Source of the DNA: Heptranchias perlo
Taxonomy: Eukaryota
Reading direction: 5' to 3'
DNA length: 64,000 nucleotides
Assembly: GCF_035084215.1 (NCBI RefSeq)
Contig: NW_027139359.1
Coordinates: forward strand, 124,001 to 188,000
Shown piece by piece: positions 13,005 to 63,299 of the stretch. Position numbers and translations under genes: made by a program. The first letter of the stretch is position 1; every line of letters begins with the position of its first letter. The notes beneath the pieces are model-generated. The model made no database searches, was not told the origin of the DNA, and saw only the letters and a list, made by a program, of their open reading frames with translations.

Positions 13005-13589
13005 GTAAGCCATTGTAATCGGTTATTTCCCCTTACGAATACTTATGCATTATTGCTGTTTTTGCCTAACAACAATATATATTCCTTTTCTGATGTGTTT
13101 GATGCTGTCGGTAATTACTGTTATCATTTGAATGAAATACATGCTTCCAGTTTTCAGCATTTTCTTAAAATAAAGAGCTTATAGAAAATAAACTTTCCTG
13201 TGAAAGTTTTAAAATGAGCGATTTTAGCGATTTTTCTTCTCCTTTATTAATGGTTCTTCAGATATTGTTGGTTTTATAGTTTCTGCGCTCCTGCCCTACG
13301 CTGGACAAAGAGGACAATTCTGCACCAATAGCCCATGACTGTTGTGCCCAATTTCTTTCACACCACATTTGAGGTAAAGTGGAGAGTGGATTGTCTGCCA
13401 GTTAACGAACACATCCAATTTTCATTCCAATTGAACGCAATGGGCTGAAAATCGGATGTTCTGTAATAAGTGGTTGAACTGCTGGGTCACTTTACAGATC
13501 AAAGTGACAACCTACACCAGGGGGAATTTTAACCTAACTTTCCTGGCCAGAAACCTTTGTAATCGGTTCGGGCGGCCGTATTGCTTCTT

Positions 13590-14046
13590 GTAGGTTAATT
13601 GTAAACTTTGGGTGATGGTATAAAATGAGCGCTATCACATTAGCCGTCCAATATAAACCCTGCCTGATTTTCTGTTCCATTGATGGAATTGGAAGGACAA
13701 ATCGGACGAGAGGTATAATGGAGAGTGAATTTGATGTCACCCATTCCACACCATCGCCAAAAGTTAAAATTCCCCCCAATGGATGGGAATGTTGGGCGAG
13801 ATGTATAATTGATGGTGAATTAGACATCGCCCGTTGCACAACATTCTCTAAAGTTAAAATTACCACTCATTGATGGGAAAATTGGGCGAAATGTGTAATG
13901 GGTGGTTAATTCAATAACACCCGTTTTACACCATCGTCCAAAGTTAAATTGAACCCCAATGGATAGGAACATTGGAGGAGATGTGTAATGGATGGTGAAT
14001 TCAATATCACCCACTTCACAGCATTTCCCAATGTTAAAAATCCCCC
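13590..14046. repeat. MITE whose right arm is tandemly amplified (4 x 90 bp)
   Basis: aagttaaaat-type motif at 13761, 13851, 13941 and 14031; left arm aactttgggtgatggt pairs with accatcgccaaaagtt. Confidence 0.8.
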
Positions 14047-14066
14047 TGCATGACTTTAGCTTTCAA

Positions 14067-14270
14067 AGGGTGAATTTTCAATTTTACAACTGTGGCAAAA
14101 TGTGCGGTATCTGATAGGCTGTGCAGCTGACAGCCCACTCGACCTTCATTTCCACTGAAGTTAAAGGAAAAAAAACGGTGGTCGAGTGAGGGGAGGCCGG
14201 AGCGTAAAACAGGAAGCAGATCCACTACAAGATGGATTTCTGCCCGGCGGTAAAACTGAAAATTCACCCT
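14067..14270. mobile_element. Palindromic MITE
   Basis: Perfect 14-bp TIR agggtgaattttca (14067-14080) / tgaaaattcaccct (14257-14270). Confidence 0.75.
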
Positions 14271-14329
14271 CAGTGAAATCAATGGAAGGTAAAATCTGTT
14301 GAAATTTGAAAACGGCAGCCTTCTGATCC

Positions 14330-14570
14330 AAGCAGTTGCTCAAAATTATCGCAAAGTCTCATCAACCACCGTGCGGGATGTTGTCAGGTCAGAACTAACA
14401 AAGCCTCACTGGGCATCCAGGAAGCACTGTGGGTCACCACAGCAGCAGAATTGTTTCCCGGCACAATCTGTACTCTCATGGTCCGGTACATCCTTTACTC
14501 CTCCATCATCATCAAGGCTGTAGACCGAGCAGGATTTAATTCTGTCTGTCAGGAGCACCATCAGCCTTTT
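14330..14570 (+). mobile_element. Degraded non-LTR retrotransposon ORF2 fragment
   Basis: cacaatctgtactctcatggtccggtacatcc is similar to 18500-18560. Confidence 0.5.
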
Positions 14571-14699
14571 GTGAGACACAATTTTGTTTCATTTACTGTC
14601 GCTATATGGGAGACGCTAGCAAGGCCACAATTATTGTGCAGTCCTGGTTTCCTGTAAAAGAATTATTGGGCCTTCTTCTTGAACAGCAACTTTTTTACA

Positions 14700-14950
14700 A
14701 CGGTGTTGTTTCGACACCACTTCAGAGGGCATTGACTCGTTTAGGTAGTGGGGGCCATACCGAGCGGGGGTGGTTGATCCCCATCCCCGAAGGGCAGTAG
14801 TAAGCCAAGGGATTTTTTGTGAAATCTGCCATTCTCATTCTTATTTGTTCTTCTTCTGGTGCTAGCACACAGATTACTTCATTAATTGAACGTGTCATGT
14901 TGGGATGTGAACTTCTGACCTCTGGCTGGTGCCAGAATAACTGTACATAC
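14700..14950 (-). mobile_element. Degraded SINE related to 48-196/2896-3135
   Basis: Reverse-strand similarity to the SINE body and B-box region (gggatgtgaac). Confidence 0.4.
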
Positions 14951-15157
14951 CAAATTAACCTTCTGCCCGAATGAAGAATGGGACATCATTCACCATTTTC
15001 CAGCAGTGTTTTATTATGTATTTGTAACTGAAACACATTCCAGATTGAAACATTTTGCTTTTATATTGTACCATAATACCAGGTATCATTGAGAAACGTA
15101 ACCAAGTTGTTTGCAGAGAGCGCAGCACTAAGATCGGAATATGGTAGTGGTTTTAAT

Positions 15158-15330
15158 GGGAGTAATTTTAGATTTGGGCGTTAGAGTAAAATGGGCAATA
15201 TCGAATGTGCTCGCATCATTTTTTTCTTCAATTGACTTCAATGGCAAGGAAAATCGGAAGTAGTGTATGAAGGACGGCTATTTTGATATCGACCATTTTT
15301 CTTTATCTCCGAAAGATAAAATGATCTCCA
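15158..15330. mobile_element. Palindromic MITE
   Basis: Degenerate TIRs ggagtaattttag / ataaaatgatctcc; central attgacttcaatgg. Confidence 0.6.
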
Positions 15331-15464
15331 ATGTGTTTGTCAATTCGAGCAGATGGGGTATTACATTGTGAATTCTATTATCGCATGATTAGGTAACAAT
15401 GCAATATCAATCGGATTATTTGTAATAACGGTATATGGACTGTACAGTTGGTTCACGACAACAT

Positions 15465-15618
15465 GGGGGTAAGTTCAACTTTAGTGACAGCATAAACCTG
15501 ACAAAATCAGATCAGTCGCCCACTGAACTCAATGGAAAGGATTCGGAAGTAGTGTGTGTACTGGCCAGCGAATTCGATGTCCGCCGGTTTACACTACCAC
15601 TAAAGTTGAAATTATCCA
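15465..15618. mobile_element. Palindromic MITE
   Basis: ttcaactttagtg / cactaaagttgaa inverted repeat; central cactgaactcaatgg. Confidence 0.65.
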
Positions 15619-15902
15619 TAATATGTGTTCCTCAATTGTTTGTGACGACCTTTGCAAGTAAGTGAGTGTAAATTGACGTAATCTGGGCAATTCCCTCCAT
15701 ACAAATTCAAAAAATAAATTAGAAAACTTCTGACCATAAAGTATTCGTCTTACCAGAATTTGAGCTTTCATAAGCTGTAGAAAACGCTTAGGTTCAGTGA
15801 CAGGAACAGAAAATAAAACATCACTGTGATTTTACACACAGTGCTAACCGTTGTCTTTCGTCAACACTAAATAATTTCGGCGTTGTGTTTCTTGTTTTGC
15901 AG

Positions 15903-16807
15903 CTAATTTAATGACGATTGTGATTCTCTCCAGGGGAAAGTGCGGTCTCTCCAAATGCATCACTCGCTATCTGGTTGCCATGGCAACGGCCGATCTACTG
16001 GTCATAATATTTGATGTGATACTGTATGCGATCAACGATATTTATTTCCCATATTCATTCCTGAACTACACTTGTGTCTGCAGAATCAATCTCCCTCTGA
16101 TTTATTTTGCCATTGATTGCTCAGTGTGGTTAACAGTGACTTTCACCTTGGATCGCTTTGTAGCCATTTGTTGCCGGAATTTGAGAACTAAATATTGTAC
16201 CGAAAAAACCGCCGCTCTGGTTATAGTGACAGTTTGTGGACTGAGCTTTTTAGAAAATCTTCCAATTTATTTTATATTTGAACCCAGTGAAATAATTGAC
16301 AACACCTCGTGGTTCTGTAATGTTCAGTCAAACTTTTATACCTCTCCCGCCTGGATAGCCTACCTCTGGTTAGACAGTATTTTAACCCCATTTGCTCCAT
16401 TCGTTTTGATTTTCCTCCTCAATGCTTTGACCATCAGGCATATTTTAGCAGCTAATATTATCCGTAGGGGACTGCAAGGTAACAATGGTGAGAATCAAAA
16501 TGATCCAGAGATGAGGAATCGAAGAAAATCGATCATCTTACTACTCGCCATTTCTGGCAATTTTGTACTGTTGTGGATGCTAACTCTGATGTATTACATG
16601 TGTGTACAAATTGCAGACTCGCAGTTTTTGCAGACAGATTACACCGACTCTTTCACTAGCATGGAAAAAGCAGGTTATCTGCTGCAGCGGTTCAGTTCCT
16701 GCAGTAACACAATTATTTATGCAGTGGCTCAAACTAAATTCAGAGAGGAATTAATGAATACGGTTAAAAGTCCATTTACTTTAATTATTAAGTTAATGAA
16801 ACACTGA
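15903..16807 (+). CDS. GPR139/GPR142-related class A GPCR gene 1, exon 2 (TM1 to C-terminus); intact, 324 aa with exon 1
   Basis: Acceptor ttgttttgcag| then (G)CT AAT TTA ATG; seven hydrophobic segments; ATADLL (D2.50), C3.25, DRF, TPFAPF, FVLLWM, NTIIY, helix 8 KFREEL; no stops. Confidence 0.93.
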
Positions 16808-18730: not shown

Positions 18731-19623
18731 CTTTTAACACATGTTACTGGGCACTACTTATGTATTATAAATATCTATCTCGATGTTACAAGGAGGCAGC
18801 GAAACTTCCTCGGACTGGGGCCTCATTGCAATAGTTCTCGGCCATTATAAGTGAGCCACATGTCGAATAGGCCTTTAAAATATGTCCATAAGTTGCATTG
18901 TAATATACGTGTTTCTAATAATTACTTTGAACTGGTATTTTACTGACACCACATCCAGTATATCCAGTCATCCATGTGCCAAACTGCTATAATGTGATCG
19001 ATGCCGGCTGTTTACAACTGATTGCGAGTCCGGTGAGAAATTCTTCCTGATTACATTGTGGCTTAACACAATGTGGCACAGAGTCGCCTTCACCAACACT
19101 CACCGGGACTCGTACTGGGCCAACACCATTACAGTGGCTTCCATCTGTTTCCTCACCCACCATGTGATGCGTCACATTGTCAGTCCTGTCATTACACAAA
19201 TAAACGGTGCAATGTTGCACCATTCAGGTTATTTGTAATAAAGGCGCCAGGTCTGTTTGAACGATGCACATTCTCATTCAAGTTCGTTGGAGTAAACCCG
19301 TAGGGTCTGTATGCATGTTGTTCCACAATATCTGTATTTCCTACCATATTGGGGGACATTTACAACAAAGCAGATATAGATTGAATAAATTCCAGCAAAG
19401 CACTCTGATCCATAATGTCACTTTTCCTATCTCTGGGTGGAATATATTAATGCTTCTAGATACAGATTTGTATTCATCTGTAAATATTCTCTTAATTAAC
19501 ATCGAGACGGATCGGCTTGAGCGAAAACAAGTACAATCCACTATAATATTATTCATGCTTAAACAATGATAATCCTTTTGTGGTGGGAATAAATAATATT
19601 TACTATTTTGCTCTTTCTTGCAG

Positions 19624-20538
19624 CTAATGTAATGACAATTGTGATTCTCTCCAGAGGAAAGTGCGGCCTCTCCAAATGCATAACTCGTTACCTGGTTGCC
19701 ATGGCAGCGGCGGATCTACTGTTCATCAGAGTTAATGTAATACTGTGTGAGATTAATAATAATTATTTTCCAAATTCATTTCTGAACTACACTCCTGTCT
19801 GCAGTTTGATTCTTACCCTGTCTTTTGCTGCCATTGATTGTTCCGTCTGGTTAACAGTCTCTTTCACCTTTGATCGATTTGTGGCCATTTGTTGCCGGAA
19901 GCTGAGACTCAAATATTGCACCGAAAAAACCGCGGCTGTCGTTATAGCAACGGTGTGTGGGCTGAGCTTCGTACAAAACATTCCGCTGTATTTTATATTT
20001 GAACCGCAGAAATTAATTATCAATGAAGATTGGCTCTGTATTGTAAAATTAAGCGTCTATACCTCACCCGTGTGGATAGCAATCTCCTGGTTTGACATTG
20101 TTTTAACCCCATTCGCTCCATTTGTTTGGATTTTGTTATTCAATGCTCTGACCATCAGGCAGATTCTGGTGACGAGTAGAGTTAGGAAGGAACTCAGGTG
20201 CAATAACAGTCGTGAGAATCACACAGATCCAGAGATGGAGACCCGAAGAAAATCCATCATTTTACTGCTCAGCATCTCTTGCAGCTTTATATTGTTATGG
20301 GTCATAACTTTAGCAGATTTTATCTGTGTACAAATTGTAGACTTTCAATTTATATTCACAGATTACAGTGACTCTCTCACCATCATGGAGGAAACTGGGG
20401 TATATGATTCAGAGTTTGAATTGTTGCACCAACACAATTATTTATGCAGTAGGGCAGAATAAATTCAGAGGCGAGCTGAAGGATGTGATTAAGTATCCCT
20501 TCGATCGAATTATTAAGTTTGTGAAATTATTGAAATAA
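19624..20538 (+). pseudogene. GPR139-related GPCR copy 2, main exon, with a +1 frameshift before TM7 (or a homopolymer assembly error)
   Basis: Acceptor tttcttgcag| CT AAT GTA ATG; open through TM6; extra G in GGGG 20397-20400; the shifted frame gives GYMIQSLNCCTNTIIYAVGQNKFRGELKDVIKYPF...TAA at 20538. Confidence 0.88.
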
Positions 20539-25807: not shown

Positions 25808-26712
25808 CTATTTAATTAATTTAATGATTAGATCCAAAGGATACTTAATTTCATGCTTTAACTCCGTTCTGAATTTTGTCTGGGCCACTGCATAAATAAA
25901 TGTATTTGTACAGGGACTGAGAAGCTGCAGCATATACCCGGTCTGTTCCATGATGATGAGAGGGTGACTGTAGTCATTGTAGAAATGCTGAGCATCTGTA
26001 ACTTTTACACAAATGAAATATACAGTGGCTATCATCCATAGCAGTAGAAAACTGGCCGATATGGCAACCAGTAAAATAATGGATTTTCTTCTGTTCTTTA
26101 CCTCTGGGTCATTTTGATTCTCACCACTGTTGCTACCTCGAAGTGTCTTGCGGATTTTACTGACCACTAAAATGTGTCTGATGGTCAGAGCATTGAACAG
26201 AAAAATCAGGAAGAATGGAGCGAATGGTGTTAAAATGCTGTCCATCCAAGAATATGCTACCCACGCACGTACGGAATAGAAACTTGACTTTAAAGAGCAG
26301 TACCACGATACATCGTTAACTATTTTCCCAGGTTCAAAAACAAAATAGATCGGGGTGTTCTCCAAAACGCTCAGCACACACACTGCTGCTATGACGACAA
26401 TCGCAGTTTTTTCCGTGCAATATCTGAGTCTCAGCTTCTGGCAACAAATGGCCACAAATCGATCAAAGGTGAAAGAGACCGTTAACCAGACGGAACAATC
26501 AATAGCAGCAAAACCCAGGATGTGTTTCAGGCTACAAATAAGAGTGTAGTTCGGGAATGAATTTGGGAAATACATGTCATTAATCTCATACAGTATTACA
26601 TTAAATATCAGGACCAACAGATCTGCTACTGCCATGGCCACCAGGTAACGGGTGATGCATTTGGAGAGACCACACGTTCCACGGGAGAGAATCACAATCG
26701 TGAATAAGTTGG
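25808..26712 (-). CDS. GPR139-related GPCR gene 3, exon 2; intact, 324 aa with exon 1 at 38392-38461
   Basis: Acceptor tttttcatgcag| CC AAC TTA TTC ACG; 905 nt like gene 1 exon 2; AVADLL, DRF, TPFAPF, FLLLWM, NTFIY, KFRTEL; no stops. Confidence 0.93.
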
Positions 26713-27174
26713 CTGCATGAAAAAGGAAAGAAAGTGACCTGATATATTATACTGACAACAAAAGGCTCAACAGTACGAAATTATTTTTTTATATAAAATC
26801 AATGCTGATTGTTTTTCACTAAACTGATTCTCATTCTGCATTAATTGACATGCGAATCCCGAGAGGTTAAATATTTTTAGCCCTTAATCAGATAAATTAC
26901 TTTGTGATTCACCTCAAAGGAAAAGATTGCCCCTGTGGAATAAAATGGTTTTCTGTCGTTTACATCAATCTGTAGGTATCTCGATGCACAGATCGTTTCA
27001 TGCACAATGAGGGACACACACGTATAGTTTAAATTCCAAAGAAACCCTGGCTAGATTTTCCTCCATGGCCGGGTCAGCACACGAAGTGTAATGGGAATGC
27101 ACTTCCTGTGGGGGAACGTAATCGGGTAATCCGACAGTGACTGATCCCATTTGCCCCAACCAACCCATTCATTA

Positions 27175-51522: not shown

Positions 51523-52390
51523 TTAGTATTTAATTAATTTTACAATTAGAGACAGGAGTACTGAATCATACTCGTCAGTTCCTCTCTGAATTTTAATCAG
51601 AGCCATTGTACAGATCATCGTGATTGTGCAGGATCTGAAAAGCTGATGAATATATCCGGTTTGTTCCATGATGGTAAAAGGGTCAATGTAATTTTTGTGG
51701 AAAATGGGAGTATCTATAATGTGTATATATATGTAATGTATAAACATTACCATCTACAACAGTATGAAAGTACCGGATATGGCCAGCGGTAGCGTTATGA
51801 ATTTCTCAGCCTCTGCGTCCTTATGATTGTCGCCATTGTTGATACCCCGCAGTCCCCTTGTGATTCTGCTGGTCAGGAGTATGTGCCTGATGGTCACAAC
51901 GTTGAACAGCAAAATTAAAACAAATGGAGCAAATGAGGTTAAAATACTTCCTAACCACAAAAAAGCGACCCACCCCTGTGTGGTGTCGAAGCTTGAAGTT
52001 ATGTAGTAGGGCCACGGCACCTTGACAATTAATTCCTGAGGTGCTTATATAAAATATTCCAGAATAATTTCTGCAAAACTCAGTCCACACGCGATTCCTA
52101 TAACCAAAGCCGCAGTATTTACATTACAACATTTTGTTGTCAATTTCTGGCAACAAATGGCCACAAAACGATTAAATGTGAAAGAATAGTTAACCAGACT
52201 GCAAGAGCAAGAGGAAGAATGAGACTGCAGACAGGAGTGTAGTTCGGGAATGAATTGGGAAAATAGGCATCGTTAATCTCATACTGGATTACATTAAACA
52301 TCCGATACCGTGGCCAACAGGTAACGGGTGATGCAGTTAGAGAGGCTGTCCTTTCCACAACAAAGAATGCAATTGTCAAAAAAAAAATAG
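51523..52390 (-). pseudogene. GPR139-related GPCR copy 4, decayed main exon
   Basis: Acceptor ttttttgcag|; fragments CITRYL, YFPNSFPNYTPVCSLIL, SILTSFAPFVLILLFN, DPFTIMEQTGY in different frames; several frameshifts and deletions. Confidence 0.9.
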
Positions 52391-52495
52391 CTGCAAAAAA
52401 GGGGGAAAGTCAAATTAGTAATTACATACATAAAGAAAAAAATGATAAGTTTGAGAATATTTTCCATTTTCTTTGCTCTGTTGATCAAAACATTT

Positions 52496-52670: not shown

Positions 52671-53957
52671 CATTGCTCTATCTGATAGTCAGGCAAATCC
52701 TGAGAAGGTAAACCTCCTCATCAATACACAGCAGCAAAATATGAATTACCTCAGGAGAGAGTGAAAGAGATACTGGTCCAGAATATTAAGATTTGTACCA
52801 TTTACATCAACGTTCGGCTGCAGTCCATAGAAGGAACATTGGGGCAGATTCATGACATTTTCACCTGGGTTTATGCATTATCTTCGCAGATTGCGGAGAG
52901 GAAGTTTGGAGGGACAGAATTGCGCCTGATTTTCTTTCTGTTCAAATGATTGCCCACCTTGATTACCGAGATCCCCAACCAAAACCTCTTCGGACTCATT
53001 AATATTGCAAGTGTACAAACAGCAGAAATATGCATATTGCAGCAGAGGACAGTGGTAAGAAATAGGAACAGGAGTGGGCTATACGGTCCCACGAGCCTGC
53101 TCTGCCATTCATAAGATCATGGCTGATCTTCTACCTCAATACCATTACCACCCGATCCCCATAGCCCTTGATTCCCTCAGTGTCCAAGAATCTGCCGATC
53201 TCAGTCGTCAATATATTCAACGACTGAGCATCCACAGACCTCTGGAGTAGAGATTTCCAAAGATTCCCAACAATTTGAGTCAAGAAAATTTTCCTCATCT
53301 CGGTCCTAATGGAAAATTTGGGAGGAGATTTGAAAGAAACATTCTCATGAGGGGTTTAGATAAAGTAAATATAAAGAAACTGTTCCCATTGGCGGAAGGG
53401 TCGAGAAACAGGACACAGATTTAAGGTGCATGGCAAAAGAACGAAATGCGACTTGAGGAAGAATTCTTTTATGCAGCGAGTAGTTGTGATCCGGAATGTT
53501 CTGCCTGAAAGGATGGTGGAAGTAGATTCATTCATGGCTTTCAAAAAGGAATTGGATTAATACTTGGAGGGAAAAAGTGCAGGGCTACGAGAAATGAGTG
53601 GGGGAATGTAACTAACTGGATTGCTGTTATAAAGAGCCAGCACAGGTCCGATGGGCCGATTGGCCTCATTCTGTGCTGTAACCAATCTATGATTTTATGA
53701 TTCTAAATGGACGACCACTTATCTTGAGACTATGACCCCTAGTTCTAGACTCTCCAGCCAAGGCAAACAGCCTCTCAGCATTTTCCTGTCAAGCCCTCGA
53801 GGAATTATATACGTTTCAATGAGATCACGTCACATTCTGGTAAACTCCAGAGAATATAAGCCAATTCTACTCAATCTCTCCTCACCTGACAACCCTCTCA
53901 TCCCAGGAATCGTACTAGTGAACCTACGTTGCACCCATTCTAAGGCAAGTATTTCCC

Positions 53958-54920
53958 TCCTTAAAGTGGCGCTTACATTTTGATTTTGTCACCGCTCGTA
54001 ATCCAGTGGAACCAGCTACTCGACTTGAGGACCCATCGGAGATAATTACTTGGACTGGGGCAGACCAAACAGGTGTGGACACATTCAGCTGGGATCTGCC
54101 CATAATGCTGTTTCCAACCAATCCTATGCTTGCATCTTATGTGTCACAGTGTTCACCTTCTAATTCCATCAGTATTCGAACTTTATTATTTTCTCTTCAG
54201 CTGAGGAGTGGTACTTTGGAAAGTTTACAACCACTGGATTTAAAATGTTTGGATTTTAATAACCATCAATGTTACAACAGTAACAAATGGAAGGGCAAGG
54301 AATGAAACCGCCATAGATTTTCCAACTACATCAGTTCTTGCACTGCTAATCAGGGGTTACTAAATATATCACAATGTGCGACACCAGAACATTGCTGTGC
54401 AGAAGTGAGCAGTAATGGCTTATGGAAAGAAATGTGAAGAGAGGGATTTGTGGTGACCACATTTTCTCCAATGAATTACATTGAAAGGGCTCGGAGGGAA
54501 AACATCCAACTTCCCCATTTTCTTATATATGTTTGAAAACTGTCGATCCAAAAATTGCTTAAATTTGAAACTGACTGATCCGAAGATTCTGTCTTCAGTG
54601 GAAGTACTTTAAACACACAAAGTTGTGTTTATGGCTCTTGATCTATGATGGTTGTGAAGTATGAGCTTACAATTAAATCGTTGAAATGCACTTTTTATTT
54701 TGCAGTGTTTTTTAATGTAGATAGTCTGAAGCCCACGATTAGGGAGTACTGCAAATTCACATACTTCTGTGCTCATTGAAGTTCCTATGTGTGTAACTTT
54801 TAACACATGCTGCACATTCACAGATAGTTTGCTGCTCTTGAGAATTCTACATTTTGTACTAAAGGTACATTTTATTCATTGTATAATAAAACATCAATAA
54901 ATCCTGTTAATCTAAAAAAA
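53958..54920 (+). pseudogene. RGP1: 5'-truncated retrocopy of the RGP1 (RAB6A GEF complex partner 1) mRNA 3' end: last ~73 codons + 3' UTR + poly(A) remnant
   Basis: SLKWRLHFDFVTARNPVEP...TWTGADQTGVDTFSWDLPIMLFPTNPMLASY...SNSISI matches the vertebrate RGP1 C-terminus as I recall it; CGA at the expected stop (54177-54179); AATAAA at 54885 and 54896; A7 at 54914-54920. Confidence 0.88.
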
Positions 54921-54982
54921 GGGCACAGTCACGATGGGACGAATGGCCTCCTTCTGTGCCGTAAATTTCTACGATTCTATGA
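54921..54982 (+). mobile_element. CR1 extreme 3' tail fused to the RGP1 retrocopy
   Basis: gggcacagtcacgatgggacgaatggcctccttctgtgccgtaaatttctacgattctatga; same tail type as 53640-53703. Confidence 0.85.
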
Positions 54983-57900
54983 TACTGTTCCTTCGGTAAG
55001 GAGACCAAAACTGTACACTGTACTCCAGGTGTGATCTCACCCGAGCTCCATATAATTGCAGCAAGCCCTCGTGACTCTTCTATTCCAACCTCTTTCCAAA
55101 TAAGGCGAACATACCATTTGCCTTCCTAATTGCTTGCTGTACCTACATGTTAAATTTCAGTGATTCATGTGCAAGGAGCCCCAAATCCCTCTGGCTTCCA
55201 ACATTTCTACGTCTCTCACCATTTAAAAAATATTTTGCTTTTCTATTCTTCCTGCCAAAGTGGATAATTTCACATTTCCCTACATTATACTCCACCTGCC
55301 ACCTTCGGGCCCACTGACTTAACCTGTCTATTTAACTTTGCAGCCTCTTGGCATCCTTCTGGCAGCTTACCTTTCCACCTAGCTTTGCCGTGAAAACGTT
55401 TTTATAGAATAGTTATGATCTGAATTCGATGCTTGAAAGGGTGGTGGAAGCAGATTCAACTGTGGCTTTCAAAATGGAAATGGACAAATACTTGAAGAGA
55501 AAAAATGCGGAAAGTGTGGGTAAATGGAACTAGCACGGGCTCGATGGCTAGCAAATCCTCTGGACCTGATGGCCTACATCCTAGGGTTTTAAAACAGGTG
55601 GATGCAGAGATATTGGATGCAAATTTGGGTACACTCTGTTCAATTTACACTCTGTCCCCTCATCTAAGTCATTGATATATATTAGAAACAGCTGAGGCCC
55701 AAATACTGATCCTTGCGGCACCCCACTAGTTACAACCTGCCAACCCAAAAATGACCCGTTTATTCCTACTCTCTGTTTTCTCTCCATGAACCAATCCTCA
55801 ATCCACGCTAATACATTATCCCCTAATACATGAGCCCTAATCTTGTGTAACAACTTCTTGTGTGGCATCTTATCGAATGCCTTTTGAAAATCTATACGTA
55901 CCTTATCCATTGGTTTCCCCTTGAGCTGCATCCTGAAAAAATTCTAATAGATTTGTCAAACACAATTTCCCTCTCATAAAACCGTGCTAACGTTGTCCAA
56001 TCATATTACGATTTTCTTAGTGTTCAGTTGCTACGTCCTTAATAATTATTAAATCCCTAATAAGAATCTAGCATTTTCCCTACTACTGATGGCAGGCGAA
56101 CTGGCCGAGAGTTCCCTGTTTTCTCTTTCTCTCCTTTCTTGAATAGCAGGGTTACATTTGCTACCTTCCAATCCATGGGGAATTCTGGAAGATCAAAACC
56201 AATGCATCAACTATCTCTGCAGCCACCTCTTTAAAACCCTAGGATGAATGTCATCAGGTCCAGGGGATTTGGCGGTTTCTAATATCATTAATTTCTCCAG
56301 TACTTTTTCTTTACTAATCTTAATTACTTCAAGTTCCTCACTCTCATTAGACGTTTAGTTCCCCACTATTTCCGGTATGTTTTTTCTGTCTTCTACCGTG
56401 AAGAGCGGTTCAAAATGTTTATTTAACATCTCTGCCATTTTCTTATTCCCCATTATAACTTCTCCTGTCTCTTCCTCGAAGGGATCAACGTTTACTTTCG
56501 CTAGACTCTTTCCTGTTTTCATACTTGTAGAATCTCTTACAATCTGTTTTATTATGTCTTGCTAGTTGACTCTCATATTCAATTTTCTCCCTCTTCATCA
56601 ATTTCTCGGTCATCCTTTGCTTATTCCTAAAACCCTCCCAACCCTGAGGCATCCTACTCTTTTTGGCAGCATTAAAAGCCTTTTTTAAAATCTTATACTA
56701 TCCTTAACTTCTTTGGTTGCCCATGGTTGAATGACTTTTCACTTGGAATTTTTAGAATTATGAATTATTTATTTAAATGTTTCCCATTGCTTATCTATCA
56801 TCACATCTTTTAATCTAATTTTCCATCTACCTTAGCCAACTCGCACCTTATACTTTCGTAATTTTGTTTAAATGTGAGACCCTAGTTTCAGACTTAACCG
56901 GGTCACTCACAAACTCAATGTGATATTCTATCATATTATGATCACTCTTCCCCAAAGGATCCTTAACTATAAAATTACGAATTAACCTTCTCTCATGACA
57001 CAATACTAGGTTCTCGGATGGGGCACACATGTCGACATGGCACATGGGCGCCGGGGGACGTTGATATCAGGTGGAGGAAATTGTGTGAATCGGCAGTGGC
57101 ACAAATGCAGCTCTAGGTCAATTTTCCTCTGCTTCACACAAGAAACAGATCACAAAGCAGTCATTAAAATGATGAATATACAGCCCCCTATCCCTGCATT
57201 AGAAATAACCTAATAATAATGCAGTACAACGTTTGAGAAGGTAATGTTAGGATTCACAATGTTATACTCCAGCTCGTGGTTTCCAAAAACAAATGAAAAC
57301 TTTGGCAATGAATGCATGTGCTTGTTCTTTCTAAGAAAACATGTAGATGATAAGAACACCAATTAGCCTGCTCTTGGCCGACACCAAGAATGTAAATTGA
57401 GACAAACTGCATCGTCATTCCCTGAATTTCTGTATATTAGCTTTAGTCGAAGCAAAATCATGGCCAACCTGCGCGCAATTTTCGGATATGTGCTTTCGCC
57501 TTGTGCCAGAATTGGATGTTTTGCATATTTAACATGACTTAGGATTACCATTGGTGATTTGCATCCAGCCACAACATAATAGTGAAACATTTCACTTTGT
57601 AATGTTCTGCAATTACAAACAGGTTGAATCATATATATTACAGCATAGTGGGAGATGAGGGAGAGACAGCTGCTCCAGGCATCGACAAAGGAGACTGTGG
57701 CAATGAAGCAGATATAGAACGTTTAGGCTAGATCGTCCAGTGATGAAGAATCTTTCTACTTATTCGACAAAGCAACATTAATACTAAAGAGAAATAGAAA
57801 TGTGCCCAAAGCATGATTTCCTGCCTTTTTGGCAGCGCTGTTAGTTATTTAAGTTCTTTTTGATTTGGCTTAAGGGAAGCCCTATCCGTGAGGTAAGTGT

Positions 57901-58949: not shown

Positions 58950-60355
58950 TAGAACATAAGAACATAAGAGATAGGAGCATGAGTAGGCCATTTGGTCCTT
59001 CGAGCCTGCTCCGCCCTTCAATGAGATCATGGCTGATCTGATTCTGGTCTTAACGCACTTTCCCGCCTCTTCCCCATATCTCTTGACTCCCTTGCTGATC
59101 AAAAATCTGTCTAACTCAGCCTTGAATATATTCAATGACTCAGCCTCCACCGCTCTCTGGGGCAAAGACTTCCAAAGGTTCACAACCCCCTGAAAGAAGA
59201 AATTTCTCCTCATCTCCGTCTTAAATGGACGACTCCTTATTCTGAGTCTGTGCCCCCTAGTTCTCGATTCCTCTATGAGGGGAAACATCCTCTCAGTATT
59301 TAACATGTCAAGCCCCCTCAGAATCTTATATGTTTCAATAAGATCTCCTCTCATTCTTCTAAACTCCAGTCAGCCCAACCTGCTCAATCTTTCTTCATAA
59401 GAAAACCCTTCCACACCCGGAATCAACCGAGTGAACTTTCTCTGAACCGCCTCCAATGCTAGTATGTCCTTCCTTTAATAAGGGGACCAAAACTGTACGC
59501 AGTACTCTAGGTGTGGTCTCACCAGCACCCTGTACAGTTGTAGCAAGACTTCCCTGCTTTTATAATCCATTCCCCTTGAAATAAAGGCCAATATTCCATT
59601 TGCCTTCCCAATTACCTGCTGCACCTGTTTACCACCTTTTTGTGTTTCATATACGAGGACACCCAAATCTCTCTGTACTGGAGCATTTTGTAGTCTTTCT
59701 CCATTTATATAATATTTTGCTTTTTTATTCTTCCTACCAAAGTGGATGACTTCACATTTTCCCACATTATACTCCATCTGCCAAATGTTTGCCCACTCAC
59801 TTAACCTATCGATATCCCTTTGCAGTCACTTTGACTCCTATCTTTGTGTCATCAGCAAATGTGGCCACAGTCCACTCGCTTCCTTCATCCAAGTTATTGA
59901 TATAGATTGTAAATAGTTGAGCTCCCAGCACTGATCCCTGCGGCACCCCACTAGTTATAGATTGCCATCCTGAAAATGACCCCTTTATCCCGACTCTCTG
60001 TTTTCTGTTCGTTAGCCAACCTTCTATCCATGCTGATGTGTTACCCCAACACCATGAGCTCTTACCTTGTGTTGTAACCTTTTAGGTGGCTCCTTATAGA
60101 ATACCTTTTGGAAATCCAAATACACTACATCTACCTGTTCCCCTTTATCCACCCTGCTCGTTACTTCTTCAAATAACTCTGATAAATTTGTCAAACACGA
60201 TTTCCCTTTCATAAAAGCATGTTGACTCTCCATGATTATATTATGAGTCTCCAAATGTCCTCCTACGACTTCTTTAATAATCGATTCTAGCATTTTCTCA
60301 TTGACAGATGTTAGGCTAACTGGTCTATAGTTACTTGCTTTTTGTCTCCCCCCTG
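58950..60355 (-). mobile_element. CR1 LINE, 5'-truncated, relatively young
   Basis: SNYRPVSLTS, YLDFQK, RPHLEYCVQFWSP, MRGDLIETY; (aacataag)n tail at ~58952. Confidence 0.93.
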
Positions 60356-61407: not shown

Positions 61408-62312
61408 TCAATGTTTCATTAAGTTAATAATTAAAGTGAAGGGACTTTTAACCGTATTCACTAACTCCTCTCTGAACTTGGTCTGAACCACTGCATAGAT
61501 AATGGTGTTGGTACACGAACTGAACCGCTGCAGCAGGTATCCTGTTTGTTACATGATAGTGAAAGGGTCGGTGTAATCTGTCTGCAAAAACTGCGAGTCT
61601 GCAATTTGTACACACATGTAATACATCAGAGTTAGCATCCACAACAGTACAAAATTGCCAGATATGGCGAGTAGAAAGATGATGGATTTTCTTCGATTCC
61701 TCATCTCTGGATCATTTTGATTCTCACCATTGTTGCCTTGTAATCCCTTTCGGATAATATTAGCTGCTAAAATATGCCTGATAGTCAAAGCATTGAGGAG
61801 CAAAATCAAAACGAATGGAGCAAATGGGGTTAAAATACTGTCTAACCAGAGATAGGCTATCCCGGCGGGAGAGGTATAAAAGCTTGACTGAGCTTTACAG
61901 AACCACCAGGTGCTGTCAATTACTTCCAGGGGTTCATACGTAAACCACATCGGAACATTTTCTAAAAAGCTCAGTCCACAAACTGTCACTATAACCGTAG
62001 CGGCGGTTTTATCTGTACAATATTTAGTTCTCAAATTCCGGCAACAAATGGCTACAAAACGATCAAAGGCAAAAGTCACGGTTAACCAGACGGAGCAATC
62101 AATGGCAAAATAAATCAGAGGGAGATTGATTCTGCAGACAGAAGTGTAGTTCAGGAATGAATATGGGAAATAAATATCTTTGATCCCATACAAGATTACA
62201 TCAAATATCATGACAAGCAGATCCGCTATTGCCATGGCAACCAGATAGCGAGTGATGCATTTGGAGAGACCGCACGTTCCCCGGGAAAGAATCACAATCG
62301 TCATTAAATTAG
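61408..62312 (-). pseudogene. GPR139-related GPCR copy 5 main exon (closest paralogue of gene 1) with one in-frame TAA before TM7; exon 1 probably beyond the window
   Basis: Acceptor ttttgtag| CT AAT TTA ATG; 905 nt like gene 1; TAA at 61551-61549 where paralogues encode Glu; the frame continues QTGYLLQRFSSCTNTIIYAV...LMKH-TGA. Confidence 0.9.
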
Positions 62313-63299
62313 CTACAAAAGAAAGAAAATGATGCGGAAATTACTCATTGTAGACAGGGGTAGGCCAGGTGGGGAAGACCCCAATAACTTTAATAACATT
62401 ATTAAACATTTCTTAATATTAAAGACACTTATACATATTAAAACTAAGAATCCGCAATATAAGCAGGTTCTAAGAGTTCATATGAGGCAAAATTAAAACT
62501 TGTGAACAAACATTACTGGACCACTAATCTACACGGACAGACATGGCATGTTCCAGGCACAGATCCAAGCAGTTAGGAGATGACCAGAAGACTGACTGGA
62601 TAAAAAAGACTAATAGAGAAGGTATGAGAAAAGATGAGATAGTAAGGTACAAACCGTAATAAACTAATGGTAGTCTCGTGAAGGTGCAATTAAGAGGATT
62701 ACATAATTTACAAATGATTTAATGGGTTAATATTTTATGTATATTCAAATATAACCAGAACGTTTTGATATGTTATCATTAGTTTAGCAAGACGTCACGA
62801 AAACTATACAACACACAAAAGCTTAAGCGGGGGTTGAACTTCGAGCTTCGACCAGTGTAAACACATCAGAACAAATCTTTCTGATGACTCCCCAGTTGGG
62901 TAATTTCCTGTACCAATAATCTCATGGTCACTGTAGGTAGTGGGTGGGTAATATGAATAAAAAGCAGTAAACTGGCGTCTCATTGTTTCCTAGTTTTCGA
63001 GCTTGTTTAAAGGGGTCTGGATACTGATTATCCTGTAAAAAAACTCAATTTATATTTAGCCTATTAGAGGGCAAAAACCTAAAAGGCATAAGAAAGGGTT
63101 GAGCAGTGTGTGTAAAATCACATCAACATGTATATTTCTGGTCCTGTCGCTTAACCCATGCTTTATCATTTGAATTATTTCAACCAAACAATAAACTGAT
63201 GTGGAATTGAGTGATTTTTTCCAGAGTCGAACAATTTATTTCCACTTAGTTCAAAAGCTGGTCACAACCAATTCAGGGAACACGGGTGAGAGAGGGGGA

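What the first reader, a model, noticed from the sequence alone, without database searches (positions are those of the whole stretch)
53951..54993. RGP1 mRNA retrocopy fused through its poly(A) to a CR1 3' tail
Seen: a ~1-kb insert splits an older minus-strand CR1. In order it has RGP1 C-terminal codons, ~740 nt of 3' UTR, two AATAAA, A7, then directly the last ~60 nt of a CR1 in the same orientation. The 5' junction overlaps the host in tcctt(aaa), which also encodes RGP1 Ser-Leu-Lys. A degenerate duplication flanks the insert (atttccctcctt / atactgttcctt). Established: CR1-type LINEs recognise their own 3' tail and rarely copy poly(A) mRNAs, unlike L1. Inference: the CR1 reverse transcriptase started on its own tail and switched template to a cellular mRNA, or copied a ligated RNA. 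This would be a route to retrogenes in CR1-dominated genomes.
Basis: partly seen in the sequence, partly recalled or inferred. Interest (0 to 1): 0.75.

Follow-up and report, generated by a model that had tools for sequence, protein, structure and literature searches.

The report
RGP1 retrocopy carrying a CR1 tail
A dead copy of the last exon of the housekeeping gene RGP1 is joined through a short A-run to the tail of a CR1-type jumping gene, and the two seem to have been pasted in as one piece, which hints at how an enzyme that normally copies only its own RNA can copy a messenger RNA.

Summary
The structure is real. A CR1-like host is split by the RGP1 last exon (53958-54176), 734 nt of 3' UTR, two AATAAA, A7, one G and a ~62-67-nt CR1-type tail. 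Contigs from public runs bridge the A7-tail joint. They also show a parent-like RGP1 about 10% diverged, whose contig runs 377 letters beyond 54869 with no listed joint into the tail; those letters were not shown. Corrections: the 12-nt duplication is weak (7 of 12); the real one is 5-7 nt and overlaps RGP1 Ser-Leu. The insert starts 1-2 nt from the last exon's start, so it has no splice joint and 'spliced mRNA' is unproven. The CR1 part starts at the foot of the tail hairpin. The target is not L1-like. A same-family CR1 250 nt away left a similar 5-8-nt footprint. Best reading: one CR1-primed insertion with a template switch onto an oligoadenylated RGP1 RNA (0.55; any single CR1-driven event about 0.8). 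It resembles U6/L2 and mRNA/L1 chimeras, with an mRNA 3' end as the partner. It is one old dead locus, later duplicated with its flank. Generality is untested.

The parts
53056..53313 (-). 3' end of the host CR1-like LINE (tail family A)
   Evidence: 74% to 58965-59229 and other window paralogues
53314..53704 (+). Separate 5'-truncated CR1-like insert of the same tail family (B) as the chimera; internal control with a 5-8-nt duplication overlapping its tail repeat
   Evidence: ORF2 end, E 8e-14; hairpin z -2.17
53703..53963 (-). Host CR1-like LINE, left flank; last 6-7 nt shared with RGP1
   Evidence: 70-73% to four full-length paralogue matches; junction alignments
53958..53963 (+). 5' microhomology TCCTTA = left copy of the target duplication = RGP1 Ser-Leu codons; 2 nt inside the last exon
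   Evidence: host family continues GGTAAGG after 53963 (table 7)
53958..54176 (+). RGP1 last-exon coding part, 73 codons, decayed; stop position 54177-54179 reads CGA
54180..54913 (+). RGP1 3' UTR with AATAAA at 54885 and 54896; parent-like match shown for 54180-54260 and 54710-54869 only
   Evidence: (X2 records 9 and 14)
54914..54921 (+). A7 plus one G: presumed poly(A) remnant and switch point
   Evidence: CR1 contigs stop matching at 54922/54923 (table 7)
54922..54988 (+). CR1-type 3' tail: 7-bp lower stem 54922-54928/54954-54960, decayed inner hairpin, octamer repeats to 54983 (a degenerate third unit may reach 54988)
54988..54994 (+). Right copy of the target duplication (core TCCTT 54989-54993)
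54988..55388 (-). Host CR1-like LINE, right flank; resumes at about 55645 with an RT domain
   Evidence: RVT_1, E 1.4e-12

Best explanation
One target-primed insertion made by a CR1-type LINE protein. (1) ORF2p bound its own 3' hairpin, nicked inside an older antisense CR1 copy and primed on the tail repeat [inferred from anatomy; hairpin recognition is shown for zebrafish L2 elements, PMC4176376]. (2) After copying the repeats and the hairpin (about 62-67 nt) it left its template at the foot of the stem and continued on a polyadenylated or oligoadenylated RGP1 transcript, leaving A7 and one extra base [inferred]. (3) It copied about 960 nt, the whole last exon; the cDNA end annealed to the 5-7-nt target overhang through TCCTTA, giving a short duplication hidden in microhomology [footprint shown, order inferred]. 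(4) The copy decayed to about 10% from the parent and was later duplicated with its flank, to about three copies, in a GPCR cluster [divergence and versions shown in one sample; segmental origin inferred]. It has no function that I can see.
For: Both ends meet the same host site: the tail abuts TTCCTT directly, with no A-run or second duplication, and the RGP1 5' end overlaps the same bases. TCCTTA occurs once in 53957-54921. A same-family CR1 250 nt away left a 5-8-nt duplication overlapping its tail repeat. Platypus U6-L2 chimeras have 1-9-bp duplications and a short L2 part (PMC4476161 section 10); ZfL2-1 makes ~5-bp duplications with annealed 5' ends (PMC4245944 passages). The target has no A-run: 3 A in the first 15 nt. 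X2 record 9 (31 differences in 291) is parent-like: of 11 amino-acid changes from its 15 listed letters, 9 restore the elasmobranch residue. X2 record 14 (16 differences in 160, similar depth) goes on for 377 letters beyond 54869, and table 5, which was not cut, lists no joint from it into the tail. CR1 contigs stop matching at 54922/54923 (899 and 357 loose ends in X1), so A7 is not decayed CR1 of the same age.
Against: The parent's letters after 54869 were not displayed (256 loose ends and 30,841 pieces were cut), so 54870-54921, which holds both AATAAA and A7, is not shown to be parental, and A7 is not shown to be non-genomic. That record 14 belongs to the same locus as record 9 rests on similar depth and divergence. 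No splice joint is present. A7 is short for a poly(A) tail. The duplication could be 0 nt, since the left copy can be read as RGP1. All run data come from one sample. No orthologue or second chimera was seen. A 62-nt tail cannot tell a LINE RNA from a SINE sharing that tail. The tail as it stands does not fold better than shuffles (z -0.82).
Confidence: 0.55

Rival explanations
1. RNA-level fusion first: the RGP1 RNA's oligo(A) end was joined to a CR1 RNA fragment cut at the foot of the hairpin, and the fused RNA was then retrotransposed as a normal CR1 substrate.
For: The CR1 part starts within 1 nt of the base of the lower stem, i.e. it is the complete minimal recognition element, as this route requires. 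RNA ligation before reverse transcription is described for U6/L1 (10.1101/2025.02.02.635956 passages).
Against: Recalled: the RtcB route needs a cyclic-phosphate 3' end as on U6, whereas poly(A) ends are 3'-OH. The stem-foot coincidence is one case, noticed after the fact.
Confidence: 0.13
2. Tail in cis: a CR1 stub once sat (or sits) just behind the RGP1 poly(A) site, and a read-through transcript ending in that stub was mobilised. A7 would then be genomic.
For: A7 is short; the full hairpin is present; CR1 tails are very abundant (13,586-15,698 records laid per DNA run, most on the CR1 parts). The parent's letters after 54869 were not seen.
Against: Loss from the parent would need an extra event.
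Confidence: 0.12
3. Two events: an ordinary poly(A)-primed retrocopy (L1/Tx1 type), then a tiny CR1 insertion exactly between its A-tail and the flank.
For: CR1 inserts are dense here: the same host carries two more same-strand fragments. Cartilaginous fishes have many retrocopies (14,081; bioRxiv 10.64898/2026.06.26.734816 passages). An unchecked note describes a chance neighbour case (e1-7811802).
Against: Needs base-exact landing. There is no second duplication and no A left of the flank. The target is pyrimidine-rich with no A-run for poly(A) priming, and the duplication is 7 nt or less.
Confidence: 0.12
4. DNA capture: a very short CR1 insertion gained about 960 nt of genomic RGP1 last exon as 5' filler during joining.
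For: No intron-loss evidence. 5' extra nucleotides are common for L2 elements (PMC2666801, PMC4245944 passages).
Against: Those fillers are mostly from flanking DNA. The captured piece ends in A7, 12 nt after AATAAA, which fits an RNA end.
Confidence: 0.08

Closest known systems
U6-L2 / U6-Mon-1 chimeras of platypus, U6-LINE chimeras of Anolis, one tentative U6-CR1 in turkey (Doucet et al. 2015, PMC4476161; section 10 and passages read)
   Same: 5'-truncated cellular RNA directly upstream of a short 3' piece of a stringent LINE, same strand, 1-9-bp duplication, explained by template switching.
   Different: The partner here is the 3' end of a protein-coding transcript with AATAAA and an A-run, not an snRNA; that paper says switching seems restricted to a few snRNAs.
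Human mRNA/LINE-1 chimeric insertions (Law and Burns, bioRxiv 10.1101/2025.02.02.635956; abstract and passages read)
   Same: mRNA-derived sequence 5' of a LINE, one duplication around both.
   Different: 15 of their 17 map to transcript starts, mostly on near-full-length L1, often at splice sites; L1 copies poly(A) RNA anyway. Here it is the last exon with its A-run on a 62-nt tail of a CR1-type element. 'CR1' has 0 occurrences in that text.
LTR-mediated chimeric retrocopies (Tan et al. 2016, PMC5131818; passages read)
   Same: mRNA piece captured by a template switch of a retroelement RT outside mammals, with microsimilarity at joints.
   Different: Flanked by LTR element on both sides, no poly(A); here one non-LTR tail on the 3' side only.
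SINEs with LINE-derived tails, e.g. HE1/HER1 of sharks and rays (table in PMC3747384; original paper not read)
   Same: Foreign head plus the LINE recognition tail; template switching is a proposed origin.
   Different: No internal promoter recognised and no independent copies: the versions seen share the left flank.

Membership tests
Processed pseudogene (retrocopy) | Intron loss across an exon-exon joint | tested here: inconclusive
   Isoforms P0038, P0037 and P0027 diverge just before the Ser, placing the last exon's start 2 nt before 53958; no joint lies in the insert
Processed pseudogene (retrocopy) | Non-genomic A-tail 10-30 nt after a poly(A) signal | tested here: inconclusive
   Spacing met, 12 and 23 nt, unique among 28 A-runs; the parent's letters at this place were not displayed
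Processed pseudogene (retrocopy) | Away from the parent, with a separate intact parent | tested here: met
   No other RGP1 exon in the window; parent-like contig about 10% diverged restores 9 of 11 residues
Template-switch chimeric retrocopy | Cellular RNA fused directly, same strand, to a LINE 3' end | tested here: met
   joint bridged by X1 record 5
Template-switch chimeric retrocopy | One target duplication around both parts, none between | tested here: met
   5-7 nt, overlapping the 5' microhomology, so 0 nt cannot be excluded; control insert 5-8 nt
Template-switch chimeric retrocopy | Parent locus lacks the LINE tail | tested here: inconclusive
   Favoured: 377 unlaid letters downstream and no listed joint; letters not seen
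Template-switch chimeric retrocopy | Both parts arrive together across species (empty orthologous site) | not testable with these tools
   No genome held; all holders are one sample
L1-type poly(A)-primed retrocopy | A-tail abuts an A-rich target with a longer duplication | tested here: not met
   The tail intervenes; flank starts TTCCTT, 3 A in 15; L1 makes ~15-bp duplications in DT40 (PMC4245944)
SINE | Copies at independent sites | tested here: not met
   X1 records 1 and 2 both include the left host flank; no other flank listed (tables cut)
CR1 clade (tail donor) | RT phylogeny; 3' hairpin plus octamer repeat | tested here: inconclusive
   Hairpin and repeat seen; neighbour with this tail encodes an ORF2 end. 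The CR1 label rests on recalled tail motifs; no tree was built, CR1 versus L2 not tested

The most novel reading that the evidence does not exclude
Tail-tagging is a recurring route in elasmobranchs: CR1 RT regularly lets go at the foot of its own recognition hairpin and jumps to the short A-tail of (pre-)mRNAs, so a real share of shark and ray retrocopies end in A-run + complete CR1 hairpin. Such copies carry the cis signal for re-mobilisation. They are missed because the tail is masked as a separate repeat and pipelines such as RCPedia require an exon joint (methods passage).
Probability: 0.2. Interest if true: 0.75.

Novelty: new variant of a known kind. Interest (0 to 1): 0.5.

Why it matters
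Reviews hold that CR1's recognition of its own tail limits which RNAs can be retrocopied (PMC5470649 passages, citing Suh 2015, which I did not read). Yet a 2026 survey counts 14,081 retrocopies in cartilaginous fishes and says CR1 or Tx1 'sustained retroduplication', with no mechanism in the passages I saw. This locus offers a concrete, countable signature (AATAAA, short A-run, CR1 hairpin, 5-8-nt duplication) that turns that question into a one-day genome screen. As a single dead copy it has no organismal importance.

Tried and rejected
No own genome was held, so no BLAST to the parent and no genome-wide screen. Pfam on the short peptide: 0 families for 2 of 2. No RNA holder listed. The two RNA-guess runs laid gave no depth on the RGP1 part; taken as no evidence. 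I laid 4 of the 7 listed runs. A 21-nt UTR pattern in metagenome contigs: 0 matches. RGP1 protein in metagenome contigs: 2 of 210 candidates confirmed, N-terminal residues only, not used. Rejected: the 12-nt duplication. Rejected: A7 as decayed CR1, since family contigs read AAAGAGCC there, 4 of 8 matching by eye. Rejected: trans-splicing from the donor-like site of the antisense host at 54995 to the last exon, because the left joint holds only one TCCTTA where splicing would give two. Rejected: re-mobilisation, because versions share the flank. The other 7 tail cores in the window are preceded by element-like sequence, none by an A-run. Literature: 10 searches listed no paper whose title or abstract start describes mRNA 3' ends fused to CR1 tails. 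The library lacks most subscription papers (Buzdin 2003/2007, Suh 2015, Ichiyanagi and Okada 2008, Ogiwara 1999 not read), and I opened no supplements; Supplementary Note 1 of the VGP retrocopy preprint may bear on novelty.
Full report
Setting. The window holds a cluster of rhodopsin-family GPCR genes (3 of 3 tested ORFs hit 7tm_1) among many CR1-like LINE fragments. It is not the RGP1 locus: tblastn with shark RGP1 finds only residues 315-387 at 53958-54176 (E 9e-30), other hits E>=2. The host is probably an elasmobranch: the best protein hit is Mustelus, and the parent-like contig has K at codon 37, where 9 of 9 elasmobranch proteins have K and 3 of 3 amphibian ones Q. No genome was held.

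Observation. All named parts are present: RGP1 C-terminal codons, 734 nt of UTR, AATAAA at 54885 and 54896, A7 at 54914-54920, a G, then a CR1-type tail from 54922. The peptide shares 53-55 of 73 residues with nine elasmobranch proteins that share 66-73 among themselves, and the stop reads CGA, so this is a decayed copy. Both flanks continue one minus-strand LINE. Only 1 of 28 A>=7 runs in the window has a poly(A) signal 8-30 nt upstream.

Target site. Paralogues read ...TCCTTCCTTA then (G/A)..TAAGG across the site (table 7). The right flank resumes at TTCCTTC (54988-54994); the left ends CTCCTTA (53957-53963). The duplication is therefore 5-7 nt and coincides with the RGP1 Ser-Leu codons, so it cannot be separated from 5' microhomology. 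A 390-nt fragment of the same tail family splits the same host at 53314-53704 with a 5-8-nt duplication overlapping its tail repeat, which gives the family's footprint. The site has no A-run for poly(A) priming.

First, isoforms that retain or skip at the last acceptor (P0038, P0037, P0027) place the last exon's start 2 nt before 53958 (inferred from protein only). The insert is thus the whole last exon and has no splice joint: a spliced mRNA and a cleaved, polyadenylated pre-mRNA fit equally. Second, the CR1 part begins at the 5' base of a 7-bp stem (54922-54928 with 54954-54960) found in both the minimum-energy and centroid folds; related tails in the window have one more pair and fold well (z -2.17 and -3.32), a family-A tail gave -1.17, and this copy alone is not significant (z -0.82 and 0.16). 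Each coincidence is a single, after-the-fact observation.

Run data (4 of 7 listed runs laid, all one sample, contigs only). (a) X1 record 5 covers 54070-54959 with 5 differences, bridging the A7-tail joint by 38 letters. (b) X2 record 9 covers 53970-54260 with 31 differences. I tested the 15 listed letters of the 31: they touch 13 codons, 2 silently; 9 of the other 11 restore the elasmobranch residue and 2 do not. This is the functional parent or very near it. (c) X2 record 14, 537 letters at similar depth, is laid on 54710-54869 with 16 differences. Record coordinates run on the record's own strand, as judged from all listed tail records, so its 377 unlaid letters lie downstream of 54869. 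No joint from it into the tail is listed in the uncut table 5. A tail inherited from the parent should be about 90% alike and pass the 80% threshold. This favours 'parent has no tail', but the letters were not displayed, and 54870-54921 is not shown to be parental. (d) CR1 contigs stop matching at 54922/54923; the family reads ...TTTCAAAGAGCC upstream, so a 3-4-nt A/AAAG microhomology with the A-run is possible only if 4 nt were later lost. (e) At least three versions of the insert exist (X1 records 2 and 3, X2 record 11), and collapsed depth is 2.9-3.1 times the parent-like contigs in X2 (depth is a weak measure). The versions that reach the left flank include it, which suggests later segmental duplication and not re-mobilisation.

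Mechanism. The simplest account is one CR1-primed event: priming on the tail repeat, copying of the hairpin, a switch to an A-tailed RGP1 RNA, and 5' joining by annealing at TCCTTA. Shown: the anatomy, the single shared site, the family-typical footprint, a separate parent. Inferred: the order, the switch itself, and the non-genomic nature of A7. I give 0.55 to a switch, 0.13 to prior RNA fusion and 0.12 to a tail in cis (together about 0.8 for one CR1-driven insertion of an RNA), 0.12 to two events and 0.08 to DNA filler.

Comparison. It works like the U6-L2 chimeras of platypus (PMC4476161, section 10 read) and parallels human mRNA/L1 chimeras (10.1101/2025.02.02.635956, abstract and passages) and LTR-mediated retrocopies (PMC5131818, passages). 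Stringent tail recognition is shown for zebrafish L2 elements (PMC4176376, passages) and stated for CR1 in a review (PMC5470649, passages). Also seen as passages only: PMC2666801, PMC4245944, PMC3747384, PMC7245038, 10.64898/2026.06.26.734816, 10.1101/2025.10.14.682431. Membership among template-switch chimeras is met on fusion and duplication, inconclusive on the parent, untested on co-arrival. It fails the L1-type and SINE tests. Ten searches listed no description of an mRNA poly(A) end fused to a CR1 tail, within a library that lacks most subscription papers. Earlier scan notes mention 7SK-CR1 and ZFYVE1 pre-mRNA-CR1 fusions and one chance neighbour case; these are unchecked leads, not support.

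Verdict. Real, probably a single CR1-made chimera; a new variant of a known kind. Interest 0.5: one old dead locus, but a sharp signature for testing how CR1-rich genomes obtain retrocopies.

Noticed in passing
window 53314-53704 (+): Same-family CR1 3' fragment splitting the same host, with a 5-8-nt duplication overlapping its tail repeat; used as control.
   Followed up: yes
window ~55390-55550 (+): Another same-strand fragment of an ORF2 end (79% to 53478-53580) interrupting the host; its tail looks incomplete.
   Followed up: partly
window 15875-16807, 19593-20462, 25808-26746, 61549-62340: Cluster of related GPCR ORFs; three tested hit 7tm_1, 19593-20462 was not tested.
   Followed up: partly
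window ~51600-52470 (-): By eye, a further GPCR-like copy with breaks, just left of the host CR1.
   Followed up: no
window 53937-54096: At least three sequence versions of the insert in one sample, pointing to segmental duplication within the cluster.
   Followed up: partly
window 54993-55001 (+): The antisense host carries a splice-donor-like site right at the insertion point; splicing was considered and rejected.
   Followed up: yes
window 55552-55621 and 56203-56271: A 70-nt inverted match (87%) within the host region.
   Followed up: no
window 54922-54983: table 5 lists contigs that go back from about 54980 to 54922-54941, i.e. tandem CR1 tails elsewhere in the genome, two of them restarting at the stem foot (54922, 54923).
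   Followed up: no
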